The translations under genes and the position numbers were made by a program. Positions 2,268-52,071 of a DNA stretch of 64,000 nucleotides are shown here, in pieces. Position 1 is the stretch's first letter. Every line of letters starts with the position of its first letter. Where the stretch lies: NCBI GenBank assembly GCA_038087875.1, contig CM075992.1, positions 4,156,001 to 4,220,000 on the forward strand, in the 5' to 3' direction. The DNA is from Malacoraja senta. Lineage: Eukaryota. The notes under the pieces were generated by a model that saw only the letters and a program-made list of their open reading frames with translations, did no database searches and had not been told where the DNA came from.

Positions 2268-3056
2268 AGTGCCTGTCCCACTTGGGAGATTTTTCAGCGG
2301 ACTGCCGGCGAGTTGCAAGTTCGTGGCACTCGCTGAAAAACCGGGAACTGGAACGGCGAGTGTCTGGAACACACACACACACACAAACACATCGCAAAGG
2401 CGGGGGCCAGGGAAAGCGGGGGAGCGCTGTCTGAAATTCACACGGTGCAAAGCCAAGGTGATACAGACACACACCGCGATGAACAGGAACGTTAAGACGG
2501 CTAGCACAGTGTACGGTAAGTCCTTTAAAAGAGGGGGGGAGGGGAGAAGGTGGAGGAGGGGGGGGGAAGAGAAGGAGTGGAGACACTTTTAAGAAGCCAG
2601 ACAACTTTTAATAAGACAGAGATACACAGCTGTGAAGTTCGGCGGGCATTTAACATTACCGGTTGGTTTTCCTGGCTTCTGAAAAATCGTGCTTACGTTT
2701 TATTTCCCCCCAATGAGCCAATGAAAATGCCCGGTCAGCAAAAGCGATTAACCAAAACTACTTACGACTACCTCGACTACCTATAACTTCATGGCGACCC
2801 CACTACAACTGCACCTACGACGACAGGATTATCAATTTTCTCCATGGCGACCAATTTTTGGTTGCAGAACCTTTTTCAACATGTTGAAAACTTTGCGGAG
2901 ACCATACTGAGGCCACGACTAGTTCCCAGAATGCGGGAACTCCTCGCGACCATGAAGGAGACTCACCAGAGACCACCAGCGAACATGTGGCGATCATGTG
3001 GTGAGCGCAGAGTCTCCTGCACTCGCCTAAAAAGTCGCCAAAGTGGGACAGGCCCT
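2268..3056. mobile_element. PIF/Harbinger-type MITE
   Basis: TIR AGTGCCTGTCCCACTT ... AAGTGGGACAGGCCCT, TTA on both flanks (2265-2267, 3057-3059); splits a Penelope-derived repeat. Confidence 0.85.
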
Positions 3057-3171: not shown

Positions 3172-3701
3172 AAGGCCTGTCCCACTGGCAGGCAGTTACT
3201 GGCGGTTACTGGCGGTGTAGCAGGAAGTTGGGACCGCGTGTGGACCGCCAGAGACCGCGCATGGCGCGCGGGGTCGGTCCCACGCAGACCGCCGGGACCG
3301 TATGTAGTTGGTCCCGACACCGTGCGGTGCTCGGAAAAGCTGACACTGTTCAAAAACCTCGGCCTACCGCCCAGCCGCCACCTCTTCGCCGCGAGCACCG
3401 CCTGTGCGCCGCGAGCCGTCTCCACGTCATCGCGTAGCGCGTTGCGTTGCGCGATGATGTCATCACCCGACGCCGCGCGACGTCCATTCCAGTCGGCCCG
3501 TGGGACAGGCTGTGCGGTGACCACCCGGCATACGCGCGGCAACAGCTTCCGGTAAGGTTGAACTTGCCGCCTGCTCGTGGGACGCACCCGAGCGGTGCTC
3601 CCGCGGCATACGCGCGGCGCTCCAGCGGTAGCCCCGCGTTCCCTGCTTCCGGGGACGCCGCGCTTCACCGCCAGTAACCGCCTGCCCGTGGGACAGGGCC
3701 A
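3172..3701. mobile_element. PIF/Harbinger-type MITE, CpG-rich
   Basis: ~35-bp imperfect TIR AAGGCCTGTCCCACTGGCAGGCAGTTACTGGCGG / CCGCCAGTAACCGCCTGCCCGTGGGACAGGGCCA, TTA on both flanks. Confidence 0.85.
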
Positions 3702-4674: not shown

Positions 4675-4871
4675 AGGGCCTGTCCCACTTGGGCGTCATT
4701 TGCGCGTCACGCAGGCGGCACGTGAAGATTATGTGAATCCCCAAATCCTGGGGTGCCGCGCGTGACCGCATGTCACTGCCTCCGCCACCACGCGCCATCA
4801 CGTGTGCGTCACGATGCGTAAATGATGTCGCGTAACTGAGGCGCAAATGATGCCCAAGTGGGACTGGCCCT
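4675..4871. mobile_element. PIF/Harbinger-type MITE inserted in a CR1 fragment
   Basis: TIR AGGGCCTGTCCCACTTGGGCGTCATTTGCGC / GCGCAAATGATGCCCAAGTGGGACTGGCCCT, TTA on both flanks. Confidence 0.85.
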
Positions 4872-5918: not shown

Positions 5919-6248
5919 TAGCCCTGTCCCACAGTACGAGTTCATTCCAAGAGCTCTCTCGAGTTTAAAAAAAATCAAACTCGTGGTAAGCACGGAGAAT
6001 GAACGTAGCGGGTACGTCGGAGCTCGGGGACGTCTCTTAGCGGCTCGTAACGCTAACAGCAGGTACTCGGGAAGACTCACTAACGGCAGGTAAGCACGGG
6101 AAGACTCGTGAAGATTTTTCAACATGATGAAAAATGTCCACGAGAGCCCCGAGTACCGACGAGTGGCCATTACCGTAAATCTCCGAGTTCGAATCAGGGC
6201 AAACTCGGGAGAACTCTTGGAATGAACTCGTACAGTGGGACAGGGCTT
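5919..6248. mobile_element. PIF/Harbinger-type MITE (GTACGAG subfamily)
   Basis: TIR AGCCCTGTCCCACAGTACGAGTTCATTCCAAGAG / CTCTTGGAATGAACTCGTACAGTGGGACAGGGCT; alignable along its length with 23793-24116; TSD degenerate. Confidence 0.8.
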
Positions 6249-6604: not shown

Positions 6605-8484
<1,880 letters not shown>

Positions 8485-9894: not shown

Positions 9895-10565
9895 ATGTAG
9901 TTGTGTGCCTTGGTGCGCCTGGGGGCTCCAGTCGCGGAGCCGGCGGACTTACTCACCATCGCGGAACTGGCCAAGTTCGGAACGAGAGGAGCTGTGGTGG
10001 CGCGCTGCTGCGGCCCGACCCCGGAGATTCGGAGGCTCCAGCCGCCGGCCCGGTGGACGGTGACATCGGGAGCTCGCGGGTCCCTGGTGGGAGACCGCTT
10101 TTCGGGGCTCCCGCAACGGCGACTTCTCCCGCCCGAGTTGCGGGGTTGAGGATGACCTGGAGCGGGGCCTTGCATCGCCCGGCGCGGCTTTAAATGGCCG
10201 CGGGACTTGCTAGCGCCCGCCGGGGGCTCCAACATCAAGACCCGGAGCGTGGCCTTGCATCGCCCGGCGCGGCTTTAATGGCCGCGGGACTTGCTAGCGC
10301 CCGCCGGGGGCTCCAAAATCAAGACCCGGTGCGTGGCCTTGCATCGCCCGCCGGGGGCTTTGACTTTGACATCGGGAGGAGAATGGGGAGTGCAGGGGAG
10401 AGATAAGACTTTGCCTTCCATCACAGTGAGGAGGAGATTCACTGTGATGGATTGTATCATTGTATCATTGTATCATTGTTCCTTTTTATTTTAGTATGGC
10501 TGTATGGTAATTCAAATATCACTGTACCTGAATTGGTACATGTGACAATAAAAGACCTTTGAACC
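9895..10565 (+). mobile_element. GC/CpG-rich SINE-like element with internal 84/85-bp tandem duplication and a conserved hairpin
   Basis: Units 10166-10250 and 10251-10334 nearly identical; hairpin TCCATCACAGTGA..TCACTGTGATGGA near 10416-10452; tail CATGTGACAATAAA; related pieces at ~270-460, ~28770-29010, ~45045-45218(-). Confidence 0.55.
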
Positions 10566-12808: not shown

Positions 12809-13146
12809 GGGGCCTGTCCCACTGTACGAGGTAAATCAAGAGTTCTCCCGGGTTTTCCCCCGATTCGAACTCGGAGAATGTCCGTAGCGGGTCCGTAGGA
12901 GTTCGTGGACGTCTCGTAGCGTCTCGTAATGCTAACGGTGGGTACTCGGGAAACCCGGTAAACTCGTGACGTTTTTCAACCACTGTGAAAAATGTCCACG
13001 AGTAAAAAAATACTCGTGATGAAATTAAAAAAAACTTTTTACTCGTACGAGACGTCCACGGACTCCTACGGACCCGCTACGGACATTCTCCGAGTTCGAA
13101 TCAGGGGAGAACTGGTGAATTGCCCCCGTACAGTGGGACAGGGGCT
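12809..13146. mobile_element. PIF/Harbinger-type MITE (GTACGAG subfamily, largely palindromic)
   Basis: GGGGCCTGTCCCACTGTACG ... CGTACAGTGGGACAGGGGC; internal inverted arms; interrupts CTGAGT|..CTCCAGCAC of the Penelope repeat. Confidence 0.8.
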
Positions 13147-14897: not shown

Positions 14898-15126
14898 GAG
14901 GCCTGTCCCACCTGGGCGTCATTTGCTCGTCATTTATGCGACATAATTTACGCGTCACGACGCACGGCGCGCGCACTACGTTGGTGCGCATTACGCGCGC
15001 ATGGTGCGTGGTGACGTAGGCAGTGACGCGCGGTCGCGCGCGGCGCCCCGGGATTTTGGGATGTACAAAATCTTCGTGGCGCCATCTGCGTTGACGCGCA
15101 AATGACGCCCAAATAGGACAGGACCT
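14898..15126. mobile_element. PIF/Harbinger-type MITE inserted in a SINE
   Basis: GAGGCCTGTCCCACCTGGGCGTCATTTGC ... GCAAATGACGCCCAAATAGGACAGGACCT; flanks CTA/TTA; same subfamily as 4675-4871 in the opposite orientation. Confidence 0.8.
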
Positions 15127-17959: not shown

Positions 17960-18354
17960 TAGAATCCACACTGACCTTTCTGTCCTCGGTCTCCTCCATT
18001 GTCAGAGTGAGGCTAAACGCAAATTGGAGGAACAGCATCTCATATTTCGCTTGGACAGCTTACAGCCCAGTGGCATGAATATTGATTTCTCTCACTTCAA
18101 GTAGCCCCGGCATCCCCCTCTCTCCCTATCCCTCCCCCACCCAAGTCGCACCAGCTTCTCGTTCTCACCTAACAATGGGCTGTTTCCTTTGTCATTCTTT
18201 TCGAACATCTTTCAATTAATGTTCGATATCTCTCTACATCAGCGTCTATATCTCTCGTTTACCTTATCCCGTGACTTTCAGTCTGAAGAGGGGTCTCGAC
18301 CCGAAACGTCACCCATCCCTTCTCTCCAGAGATGCTGCCTGTCCCACTGAGTAA
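17960..18354 (+). mobile_element. Penelope-like element 3' end (GIY-YIG C-terminal remnant + terminal repeat with hammerhead motif)
   Basis: 17968-18100 is homologous to the GIY-YIG ORF end at 36235-36500 (KLEEQHLIFRL..L.P.GMNIDF); hammerhead motif at 18283-18310; the repeat resumes at 21188 after the MITE. Confidence 0.8.
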
Positions 18355-21187
18355 TGCCCCTGTCCCACTTAGGCAATTTTTTAGGCTGTCGCAACATGGC
18401 CGCCGGGGGTGTCTCCCTGTATGGTCGGGAGTCGTCTCCTCAATCGCCTAAAGTATCGTAGCGTCTTTCTTGTCGCTGCTGGATTTTGAAATGTTCAAAA
18501 CTTTTTGGCGACGGTGGTTTGACGCCAATGAGCGTAGCTTGTCTTCTCCTTACGTAGATGCGGTCGAAGGTTGTTGCCAGGTTAACGTAGGTTGTCGCCA
18601 GGTGGCGTAGGTTGTCGCCAGGTGACGTAGGTTGTCGCCAGGTGACATAGGTTGTCGCCAGGTTAACGTAGGTTGTCGCCAGGTGACATAAGTTGTCGCC
18701 AGGTGATGTAGGTTGTCGCCAGGTTAACGTAGGTTGTCGCCAGGTGGCGTAGGTTGTCGCCAGGTGACGTAGGTTGTCGCCAGGTGACATAGGTTGTCGC
18801 CAGGTTAACGTAGGTTGTCGCCAGGTGACATAAGTTGTCGCCAGGTGATGTAGGTTGTCGCCAGGTTAACGTAGGTTGTCGCCAGGTGACGTAAGTTGTC
18901 GCCAGGTTAACATAGGTTGTTGCCAGGTGACGTAGGTTGTCGCCAGGTTAACATAGGTTGTCGCCAGGTGACGTAAGTTGTCGCCAGGTTAACATAGGTT
19001 GTTGCCAGGTGACGTAGGTTGTCGCCAGGATGAAGTAAGTTGTCGCCAGGTGATGTAGGTTGTCGCCAGGTGATGTAGGTTGTCGCCAGGTGACGTAGGT
19101 TGTCGCCAGGTGACGTAGGTTGTCGCCAGGTGGCGTAGGTTGTCGCCAGGTGGCGTAGGTTGTCGCCAGGTGACGTAGGTTGTCGCCAGGTTAACATAGG
19201 TTGTCGCCAGGTGACGTAGGTTGTCGCCAGGTGACGTAAGTTGTCGCCAGGATGAAGTAGGTTGTCGCCAGGTGACGTAGGTTGTCGCCAGGTGACGTAG
19301 GTTGTCGCCAGGTGACGTAGGTTGTCGCCAGGTGGCGTAGGTTGTCGCCAGGTGACGTAGGTTGTCGCCAGGTTAACATAGGTTGTCGCCAGGTGACGTA
19401 AGTTGTCGCCAGGATGAAGTAGGTTGTCGCCAGGTGACGTAAGTTGTCGCCAGGATGAAGTAGGTTGTCGCCAGGTGACGTAGGTTGTCGCCAGGTGACG
19501 TAGGTTGTCGCCAGGTGACGTAGGTTGTCGCCGGGTGACGTAGGTTGTCGCCAGGTGACGTAAGTTGTCGCCAGGATGAAGTAGGTTGTCGCCAGGTGAC
19601 GTAGGTTGTCGCCAGGTGACGTAGGTTGTCGCCAGGTGACGTAGGTTGTCGCCAGGTGACATAAGTTGTCGCCAGGATGAAGTAGGTTGTCGCCAGGTGA
19701 CGTAGGTTGTCGCCAGGTGACGTAGGTTGTCGCCAGGTGACGTAGGTTGTCGCCAGGTGACGTAGGTTGTCGCCAGGTGACGTAAGTTGTCGCCAGGATG
19801 AAGTAGGTTGTCGCCAGGTGACGTAGGTTGTCGCCAGGTGACGTAAGTTGTCGCCAGGATGAAGTAGGTTGTCGCCAGGTGACGTAGGTTGTCGCCAGGA
19901 TGAAGTAGGTTGTCGCCAGGTGACGTAGGTTGTCGCCAGGTGACGTAAGTTGTCGCCAGGATGAAGTAGGTTGTCGCCAGGTGACGTAGGTTGTCGCCAG
20001 GATGAAGTAGGTTGTCGCCAGGTGACGTAGGTTGTCGCCAGGTTAACATAGGTTGTCGCCAGGTGACGTAAGTTGTCGCCAGGATGAAGTAGGTTGTCGC
20101 CAGGTGACGTAAGTTGTCGCCAGGATGAAGTAGGTTGTCGCCAGGTGACGTAGGTTGTCGCCAGGTGACGTAGGTTGTCGCCAGGATGAAGTAGGTTGTC
20201 GCTAGGTGACGTAAGTTGTCGCCAGGATGAAGTAGGTTGTCGCCAGGTGACGTAGGTTGTTGCCAGGTTAACGTAGGTTGTCGCCAGGTGATGTAGGTTG
20301 TTGCCAGGTTAATGTAGGTTGTCGCCAGGTGACGTAAGTTGTCGCCAGGTTAACATAGGTTGTCGCCAGGTGATGTAGGTTGTCGCCAGGTGACGTAAGT
20401 TGTCGCCAGGATGAAGTAGGTTGTCGCCAGGTGACGTAGGTTGTCGCCAGGTGACGTAAGTTGTCGCCAGGATGAAGTAGGTTGTCGCCAGGTGACGTAA
20501 GTTGTCGCCAGGATGAAGTAGGTTGTCGCCAGGTGACGTAAGTTGTCGCCAGGATGAAGTAGGTTGTCGCCAGGTGACGTAAGTTGTCGCCAGGTGACGT
20601 AGGTTGTCGCCAGGTGACGTAAGTTGTCGCCAGGATGAAGTAGGTTGTCGCCAGGTGACGTAAGTTGTCGCCAGGATGAAGTAGGTTGTCGCCAGGTGAC
20701 GTAAGTTGTCGCCAGGTGACGTAGGTTGTCGCCAGGTGACGTAAGTTGTCGCCAGGATGAAGTAGGTTGTCGCCAGGTGACGTAGGTTGTCGCCAGGTGA
20801 CGTAGGTTGTCGCCAGGTGACGTAGGTTGTCGCCAGGTGACGTAGGTTGTCGCCAGGTGACGTAGGTTGTCGCCAGGTGACGTAGGTTGTCGCCAGGTGA
20901 CGTAGGTTGTCGCCAGGTTAATGTAGGTTGTCGCCAGGATGAAGTAGGGTTGTCGCCAGGTGACGTAAGTTGTCGCCAGGTGACGTAAGTTGTCGCCAGG
21001 ATGAAGTAGGTTGTCGCAGGTGACGTAGGTTGTCGCCAGGTGCCTGCCTTAGTTTTTGTTGTTGTTGAAGCATAATTCTATTTCAAATTTTATGTCGAAG
21101 GGGGGGGGGGGGTCCATTCGCCGTTTTTTCGGCGACCTGCTACGACTATGACAGTCGCCTAAAAATAGCCTAAGTGGGACAGGCCCA
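18355..21187. mobile_element. PIF/Harbinger-type MITE carrying an internal satellite
   Basis: TIR TGCCCCTGTCCCACTTAGGCAATTTTTTAGGC / GCCTAAAAATAGCCTAAGTGGGACAGGCCCA; flanks TAA/TTA; host repeat CTGAG|TTACTCCAGC continues on both sides. Confidence 0.85.
18567..21043. repeat. 20/21-bp minisatellite/satellite, ~120 units
   Basis: Unit GTAGGTTGTCGCCAGGTGAC with 21-bp variants ending GTTAAC or GATGAA. Confidence 0.97.
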
Positions 21188-22279
21188 TTACTCCAGCATG
21201 TTGTGTCTACCTTCGATTTAAACCAGCATCTGGAGTTCTTTCCTACCCACATTAGGATCTGTCTTGTGCGATTCCACTTCACAGGGCCCCAGATCAGTTG
21301 TCTACTCATTTTCTATCTCTATATACTTACAGCAGAGTAATGCACATTCCACAAGCCATTCAACCAATACTTTGCAATGACTAACAACATCATTGAAAAT
21401 ATTATTGATGTGGCAGTGTAATAGGGGAGGCATTACTGGGAATTAATAAAGCAATTCAAAAGTCATTATTCCATAATTGCTTTATTATTTATGAACTGAA
21501 GTCATAGAATTACTCACATATTGTTCTTTTTTGCTTAATATAGCTTTGCTGAATACAATCTCTTTTGTTTTAAATTAGTTGCAGAAATGGCACGATTTCC
21601 TCTGTGATTTTGTCTTGAGGGGGTATTTTAAGGTTTGGGGATTTGGGGAAACCTTGGTTTGGATTTACGGCAGATAAAGGTGATGATTTTGGGTGTTTGC
21701 GGTCAGTTAAAGCGGTCAGCCAAGGCTCAGTGTAAAACCGTCTCAACTCTTGCACCAAAGGGTCGCGAGTTCAAACCCAGCTCCAGACGCCAATTACATT
21801 TAAAAATATGTAAGTGCTGGAGTAACTCAGCCGGTCAGTCAGCATCCCTGGAGGGCATGGGGAGGTGATGTTTTGGGTCAGGACTCTTCTCAGACCTCAA
21901 ATATCTGAAGAAGGGTCACGCCCCCCCCCCCAAATTGTCACCTATCCATGAATGCTGCCTGACCTGCTGAGTTACTCCAGCACTTTGTCCAGAAGTCCTT
22001 CTTTAGTGCTTCCTTAGAGTGGCACGATGGCACAGCGGTAGTGTTGCAGCCTCACAGCGCCAGAGACCCTGGTTCGATCCTGACTACGGGTGCTGTCTTT
22101 ACGGAGTTTGCACGTCCTCCCCGTGATCACATGGGTTTCCTCTCACACTCCAAAGACGTGCAGATTTGTGGGTGAATTGGCCCCAGTGTGTAGGGTAGAG
22201 CTAGTGGGCGGGTGATCTTTGGATGGCTCGGGCTCAGTGGGCCGAAGGGCCTGTTTCCACGCTGTATCAGTAAACTAAA

Positions 22280-23569: not shown

Positions 23570-23769
23570 NNNNNNNNNNNNNNNNNNNNNNNNNNNNNNN
23601 NNNNNNNNNNNNNNNNNNNNNNNNNNNNNNNNNNNNNNNNNNNNNNNNNNNNNNNNNNNNNNNNNNNNNNNNNNNNNNNNNNNNNNNNNNNNNNNNNNNN
23701 NNNNNNNNNNNNNNNNNNNNNNNNNNNNNNNNNNNNNNNNNNNNNNNNNNNNNNNNNNNNNNNNNNNNN
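23570..23769. other. Assembly gap (200 N)
   Basis: Run of exactly 200 N. Confidence 0.99.
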
Positions 23770-23792: not shown

Positions 23793-24116
23793 AGGGCCTG
23801 TCCCACTGTACGAGGTAATTCAAGAGCTCTCCCGAGTTTAAAAAAAAATCAAACTGCATGTAGAAGTAAGCATGTAGAATGTACGTCGTGGGTACGTCGG
23901 AGCTCGGGGACGTCTCTTAGCGGCTCGTAACGCTAACGGCAGGTACTCGGGAAACGCGGTAAGCTCGGGAAGATTCGTGAAGATTTTTCAACATGTTGAA
24001 AAATGTCCACGAGGGCCCCGAGTACCTACGAGCGGCCATTACCGTAATTCTCCGAGTTCAAATCAGGGGAAACTCGGGAGAACTCTTGAATTACCTCGTA
24101 CAGTGGGACAGCCCCA
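23793..24116. mobile_element. PIF/Harbinger-type MITE (GTACGAG subfamily)
   Basis: TIR AGGGCCTGTCCCACTGTACGAGGTAATTCAAGAG / CTCTTGAATTACCTCGTACAGTGGGACAGCCCCA; TTA on both flanks. Confidence 0.88.
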
Positions 24117-27604: not shown

Positions 27605-28209
27605 AGGGCCTGTCCCACTTGGGTGTCATTTACACGACATCCTAAAAATTGGTTGGCACGTCGTGAGACGCGCATGGCGCGTGGTGAGGCGTGGTGGCGT
27701 GTGCAATGGCGCGGTAACCCCCAGGATTTTGCAGTGCTCAAAATCCTCGCGCGCCACCTGCGTGATGTATGCCTTGTGCATGCTGACGTACTTATGGCGT
27801 ACGCTAACGTACTGACGGCGTACGAGTAGCGCGTGGTGACGCATGGTTATGCACGGTGACGCACGAACATTGCCTATGCTAATTTATCATGCCTCACCGT
27901 GCGTCAACGTCCATAACCATGCGCCGCCCGTACGCCGTCGGCTCGCCGTTTGTGCGTCATTTGTGCGCCGCACCACGTGACCACCCGGGTATAAAGCGCG
28001 CGTAGTTTTGAACATTTTTCACTGGGAAAATCCTTGCCACGGAGATCGGACTAAGTACGAACGACATCGCAAATGGCTCCCAATAGAAGCAGGGCCCTCA
28101 AGAGCATTTGGCGCGCGACTGTCGTACTGCTAGACGATTTTCGCCCGACAGTCACTGCCGGCGTGTCGAGTAAATGACGCGCAAATGACGCCCAAGTGGT
28201 TCAGGCCCT
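27605..28209. mobile_element. PIF/Harbinger-type MITE, CpG-rich
   Basis: AGGGCCTGTCCCACTTGGGTGTCATTT ... AAATGACGCCCAAGTGGTTCAGGCCCT; flanks ATA/TTA. Confidence 0.82.
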
Positions 28210-44175: not shown

Positions 44176-44599
44176 ATGGAGTGTTCTTGCAAGTGAGTAT
44201 GCCTGTGATGGAGTGTTCTTGCAAGTGAGTTTAATATCAATGGAAAATTCCATTCTGCAGTGCAAAGATGATTTACGAGGGTGTTGCTGGGACTTGAGGG
44301 TCTGGGCAGGGTAGGACTTTATCCTTGGAGTGCAGAAGGCTGGGCAGGTGGGCTGAAGAATGGGTGATGGAATTTAATACAGAGTAATGTGAGGTGTAGC
44401 ATTTTGGGGAGTCCAACATGGGCAGAACCCACACAGTGATTGGTAGAGTTCTGGGGAGTGTTGTAGAGCAGAGGGAGCTGGGAGTGCAGGTACATAGGTA
44501 AACATCACCTATCCATGTTCTCCAGAGATGCTGACCCCTGACCCATTGAGCTATCTCAGCACTTTGTGTCTATCTGCTGTGTAGGTTTCTTTGCTTTTT

Positions 44600-46215
44600 C
44601 TGGGTGAACAACATTCTGGCAGGCAGGTTTGCCACTGCTACATGGGTAGGAGAGTATGGCGCAAGTGAAATAGGAATCGATGTGAAAGGTGAGGTGAGTA
44701 ATGGATTAAAAGTATTATATATGAATGCGCAAAGTTTAAGAAGTAAAGTGGATGAGCTTGAGGCTCAGTTAGAGATTGGTAGATATGACATTGTGGGGAT
44801 TACAGAGACATGGCTACAGGCGGATCGGGAACTGAATATTCAGGATACGTCCTATAGAAAGGACCGGCAGGTGGGCAGAGGAGGTGGGGTAGCTCTGTTG
44901 GTGAGGGATGAAATTCAGTCCCTTGCGAGGGGGAGACATAGGGACTGATGATGTAGAGTCGCTGTGGATAGAATTGAGGAATTGTAAAGGTAAGAAGACA
45001 CTAATGGGAGTTATCTACAGGCTCCCCAAACAGTAGCCTGGATATACAATACAATACAACACAATACAACACAATACAATACAAATTTATTGTCATTTGA
45101 ACCTCAAAAGAAGTTCAAATGAAATTTGGTTTCTGCAGTCATACAACAAGAAAAGAACCAAGAACCACAAACACACAATTTACACAAACATCCATCACAG
45201 TGAATCTCCTTCTCACATGTAGGGTGCAAGTTGCAGCAGGAATTACAATTGGCATGTAACAAAGGTAATGCCACTGTGGTTATGGGAGATTTCAATATGC
45301 AGGACTGTGAAAATCAGGTTGGTTCTGGACCCCAAGAAAGGGAGTTTGTAGAGAGTCTCCAAGATGGATTTTTAGAGCATCTTGTACTGGAGCCTACCAG
45401 AGAAAAGGCAATTCTGGATTTAGTGTTGTCTAATGAACCAGATTTAATAAGGGAACTCAAGGTAAAGGAACCGCTGGGAGATAGTGACCATAATATGGTA
45501 AGTTTTAAACTACAATTTGAGAGGGAGAAGGTTAAATCAGAAGTGTCAGTGTTGCAGTTGAACAAAGGGGACTATGAAGGCATGAGAGAGGAGCTAGCCA
45601 AGGTTGACTGGAAAAGGATCCTAGCAGGAATGACGGTGGAACAGCAATGGCAGGAATTTCTGGGCGAAATCAAGAAGATGCAGGATCATTTCATTCCAAA
45701 GAGGAAGAAGGATTTTAAGGGGATTAAGAAGCAATTGTGGCTGACAAGGGAAGTTAGGGATGGAAAAAAACTAAAATAAAAGGTGTATAACATAGCAAAG
45801 AGTAGCCGGAAGCCAGAGGATTGGGCAACTTTCAAAGGGCAACAGAAGGTAACAAAAAAGGCAATATGGGGTTAAAAGATGAAGTACGAGGGTAAACTGG
45901 CCAAGAATATAAAGAAGTATAGTAAAAATGTATTTAGGTATATTAATAGATTAGTAAAGACAAATGTGGGTTCCTTGAAGGCAGAAACAAGTGAAATTAT
46001 TATGAAGAACAAGGAAATGGCAGAAGAGTTGAACAGGTACTTTGGTACTGTCTTCACTAAGGAAGACACAAACAATCTCCCAGATGTACCAGAGGACAGA
46101 GGATCTAGGGAAACAGAGGATCTGAAAGAAATTTGCATTAGGTGAGAAGTAGTATTGGGTAGATTGATGGGACTGAAGGCTGATAAATCCCCAGGGCCTG
46201 ATGGTCTGAATCCTA
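44600..46215 (+). pseudogene. CR1 ORF2 N-terminal part: APE endonuclease + linker, frameshifted, interrupted at ~45045-45218
   Basis: LKVLYMNAQSLRSKVDEL..YDIVGITETWL, VVMGDFN, ILDLVL, LGDSDHN, ELNRYFGTVFTKED, ending at KSPGPDG. Confidence 0.92.
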
Positions 46216-51829: not shown

Positions 51830-52071
51830 AGGGCCTGTCCCACTTTCACGACCTAATTCACGACTTTTTTTAACTCGTGGACATTTTTCTTCATGCTGGA
51901 AAAAAACGCCCCGTCCTACTTGATGCCACGAGTACTTACGACTAGCATCACGACCTACCTACGACCTACCTACGACCTTCCTACGACCTCGTGACGACCA
52001 TGCTGCGAGTATGAGTCAAGGGCAAACTCGGCAGAGGTCGTGAATTAGGTCGTGAAAGTGGGACAGGCCCT
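51830..52071. mobile_element. PIF/Harbinger-type MITE inserted in a SINE
   Basis: Perfect 35-bp TIR AGGGCCTGTCCCACTTTCACGACCTAATTCACGAC; flanks TAA/TAG; internal CGACCTACCTA tandem repeats. Confidence 0.9.

What the first reader, a model, noticed from the sequence alone, without database searches (positions are those of the whole stretch)
18355..21187. A 2.5-kb satellite born inside a Harbinger-type MITE
Seen: the 20/21-bp array (18567-21043) is enclosed by matching TIRs at 18355 and 21187, and the interrupted host repeat (…CCCACTGAG|TTACTCCAGC…) rejoins across the element. Without the array the MITE would be ~350 bp. The unit's reverse complement (GTCACCTGGCGACAACCTAC) resembles the short internal repeats CGACCTACCTA of the MITE at 51830-52071 and CGACTACC of 2268-3056. 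Inference: a subterminal (possibly transposase-partner binding) motif has amplified to ~120 copies, a snapshot of TE-to-satellite transition.
Basis: partly seen in the sequence, partly recalled or inferred. Interest (0 to 1): 0.7.

Follow-up and report, generated by a model that had tools for sequence, protein, structure and literature searches.

The report
Minisatellite inside a non-autonomous DNA transposon
A short jumping-DNA element carries a 2.5-kb run of a 20-base motif that belongs to its own widespread family and has recently been re-amplified here, a clear new example of a known route from transposons to tandem repeats.

Summary
A 2,833-bp element (18355-21187; TIRs 24/27, flanks TAA/TTA) interrupts a host repeat and encloses 122 units of 20-22 bp; its arms total 353 bp. 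The unit comes from the element's own lineage: left arm plus first units are colinear with element 2268-3056 (0/500 shuffles), and the unit's GTCGCC core is the motif repeated in both arms. It was not born at this locus. In contigs of 4/4 runs (one matching the flank exactly, three about 6-7% diverged), unit-like DNA sits next to the same right end in other copies. Its summed depth is 1,900-5,500 times single copy, against at most about 400 from this array; these depths are rough. The array looks far younger than its arms (19 mutational steps versus about 90-120 expected if static), with block duplications and polarity: a minisatellite (VNTR) turning over in place. Harbinger membership is likely but untested (no transposase, imperfect TSD). 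Protein binding, length polymorphism, spanning long reads and escape from the element are untested. Tandem-repeat-carrying MITEs are well described; this is a new member.

The parts
18201..18351 (+). Host interspersed repeat (SINE/LINE-tail-like), upstream part; left boundary approximate
   Evidence: about 35 window hits per base near 18301-18354; blast hits; loose-end consensus
18352..18354 (+). Left target-site copy (TAA; one mismatch to the right copy)
18355..18381 (+). Left TIR (24/27 to the right TIR; its 10-nt core is shared by 10 elements of the window)
18355..18560 (+). Left arm, 206 bp, colinear with the reverse complement of element 2268-3056; holds repeated GTCGC/TCGCC motifs
   Evidence: score 53 without TIR and units, 0/500 shuffles
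18484..18500 (.). AT-rich internal palindrome, also found in 7 of the other 9 elements
18561..21040 (+). Minisatellite: 122 units of 20-22 bp, 19 variants (A 40, B 24, C 20); first unit degenerate; tandem 7-unit block duplication at 18582-18865; BC dimers; polarity
21041..21117 (+). Subfamily-specific spacer (AT-rich, then poly-G at 21100-21112); absent from other family copies in which a unit joins the right end directly
   Evidence: tables 2, 4, 5
21118..21160 (+). Right subterminal region: TCGCC...GGCGA hairpin and GTCGCC motif; other copies carry an extra 10-bp motif repeat here
   Evidence: table 7
21161..21187 (-). Right TIR
21188..21190 (+). Right target-site copy (TTA, the host repeat's own triplet)
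21191..21246 (+). Host repeat, downstream part (tail); right boundary approximate
   Evidence: loose ends at 21232-21246
2268..3056 (-). Related 789-bp TIR element (TTA/TTA) with degenerate, unamplified homologues of the unit near 2760-2850

Best explanation
A non-coding cut-and-paste element of a large family, probably PIF/Harbinger type, inserted into the TTA of a host retro-repeat tail (shown: TIRs, TWA flanks, rejoining host; inferred: superfamily, mobilisation in trans). The family already carried a few degenerate, head-to-tail GTCGCC-containing motifs inside its ends (shown by homology to 2268-3056 and by contigs of four organisms). In this copy, and possibly in other copies of its subfamily, that motif run expanded to about 120 units and keeps turning over in place by slippage and unequal exchange or conversion. 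That would duplicate blocks and dimers and purge most point mutations (patterns shown; mechanism inferred from general minisatellite biology). It is best read as a neutral, transposon-borne VNTR; no function is needed.
For: Anatomy. Homology: left arm + 4 units vs 2268-3056 scores 78 vs 26+-3.6, 0/500; 3 A units score 36, 0/500. GTCGC occurs 5 times vs 0.14 expected and TCGCC 5 vs 0.21 in the arms; TCGCC 7 vs 0.49 in 2268-3056; the other eight elements repeat other motifs. Family-wide unit: 10 of the 15 joint rows shown link unit positions 21012-18 to 21118-25, one of them in 4/4 runs; 15-19 contigs per run share an indel at 21044 and 12-16 at 21038; unit-bin depth 1,924-5,491x vs an upper bound of about 407x from this locus. 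In-place turnover: 19 steps link 18 variants (0.8% of 2,480 bp) vs 87-124 private changes expected if static at 3.5-5%; arm pieces differ from paralogues by a median 9.5% (27 pieces); BC pairs 17 vs 3.9 expected; a 7-unit block of six variants is repeated back to back; C-type units 1 of 24 and CpG-decayed units 13 of 22 lie in units 1-34 (p 0.002, cut chosen after viewing).
Against: No transposase or Myb/SANT hit in 23 of 37 long ORFs scanned. The TSD is imperfect and both ends start with T, whereas PIF/Harbinger TIRs usually start with A or G. The single-unit ungapped test is not above shuffles; the first four units alone reach only 24/500. The tool warns that depth is no copy number; joints have only 20-30 letters on the short side, and the three pieces crossing unit-to-spacer have 17-24 unit letters, below the tool's 31-letter bridging rule. 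My simulation misplaces depth between bins (more in bin 2 than bin 1, the reverse of what was seen), so only its upper bound is used. Motif enrichment was scored against a CpG-poor background. The longest repeated block (8 units) was exceeded by some shuffles (max 11). Arm divergence may partly reflect subfamily differences rather than time since insertion.
Confidence: 0.72

Rival explanations
1. A whole subfamily carries long arrays and transposes with them, so this array was largely inherited from a donor copy, not grown here.
For: Unit-bin depth divided by spacer-bin depth is 121, 108, 82 and 64 in the four runs, near this copy's 122 units; the spacer is at about 24-38x single copy. Fixed variant order inside MITE arrays has precedent in DTC84.
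Against: The depth ratio can equally come from thousands of short copies with one or two units, and the depth profile (bin 1 above bin 2) fits short unit-plus-end matches. The TSD mismatch and private changes in both TIRs against the contig consensus suggest an old insertion, while the array has very few private changes.
Confidence: 0.15
2. An independent satellite or minisatellite was captured by, or inserted into, the element (the miDNA4-type model).
For: The right junction is abrupt and followed by an unrelated spacer; capture of a pre-existing repeat is proposed for miDNA4 (passage); free arrays elsewhere cannot be excluded with contigs.
Against: The left junction is gradual and colinear with the motif region of 2268-3056; the unit core equals the arms' motif; other copies run from a unit straight into the terminal hairpin; no second array in the window (one 2-mismatch hit of the 16-nt core).
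Confidence: 0.06
3. The array is real but its length and part of its variation are assembly artefacts.
For: No listed piece spans the stretch laid, and the matching contig breaks in the host tail at 21217; two singleton variants are 1-base indels in runs, typical of long-read error (general knowledge); another 1.9-kb simple repeat lies at 6609-8484.
Against: A non-periodic order of 19 variants, with polarity and multi-base variants, is not what collapse or looping produces; the unique flank matches an independent contig with 0 differences in 574 bp (that run may be the window's source).
Confidence: 0.04
4. The array is kept or driven by protein binding: each unit is a site for the family's Myb/SANT-like helper or for a host factor.
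For: The Harbinger3_DR Myb-like protein binds a 9-bp subterminal motif (passage in PMC9710019); each element group in the window repeats its own CG-containing motif; the GTCGCC core is intact in most units (its CpG in 117 of 122) while the other half of the unit varies (its CpG in 77 of 122); MITE-amplified E2F sites are bound in vivo in Brassica (passage in PMC5950925).
Against: No cognate protein was found or tested; uneven variation along the unit can come from a few old variants being amplified; neutral turnover explains everything seen.
Confidence: 0.08

Closest known systems
miDNA4 MITE of Xenopus tropicalis (Scalvenzi and Pollet 2014; seen only as passages in reviews PMC9659126 and PMC12628747)
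   Same: Vertebrate MITE with an internal repeat present as a monomer or as arrays of variable copy number; proposed route to satellite DNA.
   Different: Tc1/mariner, not a TWA/Harbinger type; its authors propose capture of a pre-existing repeat, whereas here the unit matches the element's own motif.
Xstir repeats in the Xmix MITE of Xenopus (Hikosaka and Kawahara 2004; passages)
   Same: Tandem repeats derived from internal MITE sequence; MITE, array and composite forms.
   Different: Free arrays are documented there; none is shown here. Different element family.
DTC84 / pearl-type tandem-repeat-containing elements of bivalves (PMC3879986; abstract and Discussion read)
   Same: Flanks act as a cassette for internal repeats; ordered variants; variable copy number.
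   Different: About 160-bp units, up to about five copies, AA TSD, possibly Helitron-like; here 20-bp units in 122 copies and TWA flanks.
BrickBuilt MITE of Porphyromonas gingivalis (PMC4596501; abstract read)
   Same: 23-nt minisatellite between leader and tail with inverted ends.
   Different: Bacterial, 19 copies per genome, unrelated sequence.
PIF/Harbinger non-autonomous elements, e.g. relatives of zebrafish Harbinger3_DR (passages in PMC4482050, PMC9710019, PMC9179366)
   Same: 3-bp TWA-type target, short TIRs, repeated subterminal motifs.
   Different: No autonomous partner identified; imperfect TSD; T-starting ends; 'Harbinger' does not occur in the two TE-to-satellite reviews searched (0 occurrences).

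Membership tests
PIF/Harbinger superfamily (non-autonomous member) | 3-bp TWA target site duplication | tested here: inconclusive
   TAA/TTA here; perfect TTA/TTA in 4 of the 8 paired elements; the host's own triplet is TTA. Definition from PMC4482050.
PIF/Harbinger superfamily (non-autonomous member) | Short TIRs (mostly under 60 bp) | tested here: met
   27-bp TIR, 24/27.
PIF/Harbinger superfamily (non-autonomous member) | First TIR base usually A or G | tested here: not met
   Both ends start with T; 11 of the 14 ends of the other seven paired elements start with A or G. A tendency, not a rule.
PIF/Harbinger superfamily (non-autonomous member) | Ends shared with an autonomous element encoding a DDE transposase and a Myb/SANT protein | not testable with these tools
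   No genome held; none in 23 of 37 ORFs; no TE library available; the PHIS supplement lists TIR lengths, so its zero motif hits are uninformative.
NuwaII (PHIS) | Target C|TNA|G | tested here: not met
   The target is G|TTA|C against the definition.
MITE | Non-coding, short, TIRs, high copy number | tested here: met
   Arms 353 bp; right end at thousands of times single-copy depth with contigs running into different flanks. This copy itself, at 2.8 kb, is above MITE size.
Tandem-repeat-containing MITE | The same unit occurs inside other copies of the family | tested here: met
   Joints and junction contigs in 4/4 runs, with short overlaps as caveat.
Tandem-repeat-containing MITE | Unit number varies between copies | tested here: inconclusive
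   Contigs do not span arrays; 2268-3056 has only degenerate homologues.
Minisatellite / VNTR | Head-to-tail units of about 10-100 bp in an array of kb size with interspersed variants (definition from general knowledge) | tested here: met
Minisatellite / VNTR | Length polymorphism between alleles | not testable with these tools
   Only contigs were available.
Classical satellite DNA | Very long arrays, free of element ends (definition from general knowledge) | tested here: not met
   2.5 kb with both ends present; other loci not testable.

The most novel reading that the evidence does not exclude
The unit is the binding site of the family's Myb/SANT helper protein, and a subfamily of some tens of copies, conserved across several related species, each carries about 100 such sites. 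The transposon's own recognition motif would then have become a dispersed, mobile minisatellite family able to titrate its transposition machinery or host factors, in elements that also home to one TIR-like site of a host retro-repeat.
Probability: 0.12. Interest if true: 0.62.

Novelty: new member of a known kind. Interest (0 to 1): 0.3.

Why it matters
It is a tidy natural case in which the source motif, unamplified relatives and the amplified array are all visible, so the origin of a minisatellite from a transposon's own subterminal motif can be traced and dated. If many copies carry arrays, the family offers replicated loci for testing which features trigger expansion, and a set of hypervariable markers. 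It does not change the known picture that MITEs seed tandem repeats.

Tried and rejected
Whole genome: none held, so no census of copies. Metagenome scans with a unit pattern and a TIR pattern: 0 and 0 hits. Viral contigs, 15-nt TIR pattern: 28 single matches, none with a unit, no blast hit to the arms at E<1e-3; 3 of 28 have the 10-nt core in both orientations at one mismatch; taken as chance. Coding role: the array has open frames on the minus strand; the FATC hit (E 3e-8) has 0 stretches passing alone and is a repeat-summing artefact. RNA families: none at gathering score in the window. My recalled idea that the host repeat holds a hammerhead ribozyme (Penelope-like) got no support in two E-value scans. 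G-quadruplex: no three-tier motif in the array; a weak stacked hairpin is predicted on the + strand (-20.3 kcal/mol per 121 nt, no shuffle control). Empty-site test in relatives failed: their orthologous contigs end in or near the host tail at 21203-21270. The loose-end consensus before 21106 is only marginally unit-like (45/1000 shuffles) and is not used. Earlier findings: nothing by sequence, place or vertebrate words. Sinzelle 2008 is not held. A recalled precedent of an Arabidopsis Harbinger MITE with a minisatellite of E2F sites could not be confirmed: the only hit was a retracted paper, not read.

Full report
Observation. The window is repeat-rich eukaryotic DNA (CpG o/e 0.55 outside the element). 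Its host repeat recalls those of skates and rays; this is from memory and untested. The element runs 18355-21187 (2,833 bp). Its ends match at 24 of 27 positions and are flanked by TAA and TTA. TRF reports a 20-bp period, 121.8 copies, 89% matches; parsing gives 122 units, 19 variants, 18561-21040, leaving 353 bp of arms. The interrupted host repeat rejoins: the flanks joined hit many window copies, and in all 4 runs laid, 397-631 contigs matching from 21188 carry the host's upstream part in place of the TIR. Outside the array the 16-nt unit core has one 2-mismatch hit in the window.

Kind of element. Ten elements in the window share the same 10-nt TIR core. Four of the eight with paired ends have perfect TTA/TTA flanks. 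TWA duplication and short TIRs define PIF/Harbinger in PMC4482050 (passages). Against a firm assignment: this copy's TSD is imperfect, both its ends begin with T, no transposase or Myb/SANT domain was found in 23 of 37 ORFs of at least 130 aa, no genome is held, and the paper's supplement gives TIR lengths, not sequences. It works like a non-autonomous Harbinger; membership is likely, not shown.

Where the unit comes from. The left arm without TIR aligns to the reverse complement of element 2268-3056 (score 53, 0/500 shuffles), and the alignment continues through the first units (78, 0/500); three A units alone score 36 (0/500) at the same place. In a second test over ten targets, multi-unit stretches matched 2268-3056 (0/200, 0/200), the element's own arms (0/200, 2/200) and 51830-52071 (1/200, 0/200); the other seven were weaker (best 4/200). 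Each element group repeats its own CG-containing 5-mer. The arms here repeat GTCGC (5 vs 0.14) and TCGCC (5 vs 0.21), as does 2268-3056 (TCGCC 7 vs 0.49); this is the core of the unit (background is CpG-poor). That such motifs bind the element's Myb-like protein is shown for zebrafish Harbinger3_DR (passage in PMC9710019) and only inferred here.

Other copies. One search listed 21 runs from seven coded organisms, all kept as contigs; I laid 4 of them on 20981-21790 (last three units, right arm, flank). X15 matches the unique flank with 0 differences in 574 bp and may be the window's source. X1, X16 and X2 differ by 7.3, 6.5 and 6.1%. Relative to single-copy depth, the two unit bins average 5,491, 3,750, 1,924 and 3,013x, while simulated unitigs of this locus give at most about 407x. 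The simulation misplaces depth between bins, and the tool warns that depth is no copy number, so only orders of magnitude count. Ten of 15 joint rows shown (66 in all) link a unit at 21012-18 directly to 21118-25, one row in 4/4 runs. Other copies thus have the unit beside the same right end without this copy's spacer. 15-19 contigs per run share an indel at 21044 and 12-16 one at 21038, so the spacer subfamily has multiple copies (about 24-38x). The short sides are only 20-30 letters. The unit is therefore an old family part, not an invention of this locus. Whether it sits in many short or tens of long arrays is open: unit/spacer depth ratios of 64-121 fit the second reading, the bin profile the first. 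Orthologous contigs of relatives end in or near the host tail, so the age of the insertion was not obtained.

History of the array. Arm pieces differ from paralogues by a median 9.5% (range 5-13%; 27 of the 28 arm pieces shown, one left out by a slip; they are the longest of about 89,000). Both TIRs carry private changes against the contig consensus. A static array would hold about 87-124 private changes; only 19 steps link the 18 non-edge variants. BC dimers are enriched (17 vs 3.9), a 7-unit block of six variants is repeated back to back (the longest block length alone is not beyond shuffles), and variants are polarised (C-type 1 of 24, CpG-decayed 13 of 22 in units 1-34; p about 0.002, cut chosen post hoc). 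This is the pattern of a minisatellite turning over in place by slippage and unequal exchange (mechanism from general knowledge). Two singleton indels may be sequencing errors.

Comparison. Tandem repeats inside MITEs are established: Xstir/Xmix and miDNA4 in Xenopus (passages in PMC9659126 and PMC12628747), DTC84 (abstract and Discussion of PMC3879986), BrickBuilt (abstract of PMC4596501). I found no description of a Harbinger-type case: 0 occurrences of 'Harbinger' in the two reviews, and nothing matching in the search listings. The library lacks most subscription papers and no Repbase or Dfam comparison was possible, so this is weak. Supplements of the reviews were not read.

Verdict. Real, correctly described, and more informative than a lone array because source motif and relatives are visible. 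It is a transposon-borne minisatellite of a known kind, not evidence of a new satellite being born at this spot. Interest 0.3.

Noticed in passing
window 12809-13146, 18355-21187, 23793-24116: Three of eight paired-TIR elements (3 of 10 with the two delimited later) sit at the same TTA of the host repeat's tail; 30 intact such sites among 1,785 TWA sites, binomial p 3e-4 for n=8, post hoc, one case degraded. X15 record 15 shows another copy running 22 bases into the same tail. Possible target hot spot.
   Followed up: partly
window 18338-18347: The host tail just upstream of the insertion site contains the same 10-nt core as the TIR (9 exact-type copies in the window). Chance or a cue for targeting; unexplained.
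   Followed up: no
window 2268-3056, 3172-3701, 4675-4871, 5919-6248, 12809-13146, 14898-15126, 23793-24116, 27605-28209, 51830-52071: Nine more elements share the TIR core but repeat group-specific CG-containing motifs; 7 of them have an internal AT-rich palindrome like 18484-18500.
   Followed up: partly
window 3592-3638, 6053-6107, 27782-27824, 51950-51989: Small internal tandem repeats (2-3.6 copies of 11-29 bp) inside four of these elements: internal duplication is common in this element group.
   Followed up: no
window 6609-8484: A 1.9-kb (AC)n-type array, 923 copies, 84% matches; unusually long.
   Followed up: no
window 44550-45779: Broken LINE-type endonuclease fragments (Exo_endo_phos, Exo_endo_phos_2).
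   Followed up: no
window 23570-23769: 200-base N gap directly upstream of the element at 23793.
   Followed up: no
window 10154-10350: 84-bp GC-rich tandem repeat, 2.3 copies, 95% matches.
   Followed up: no
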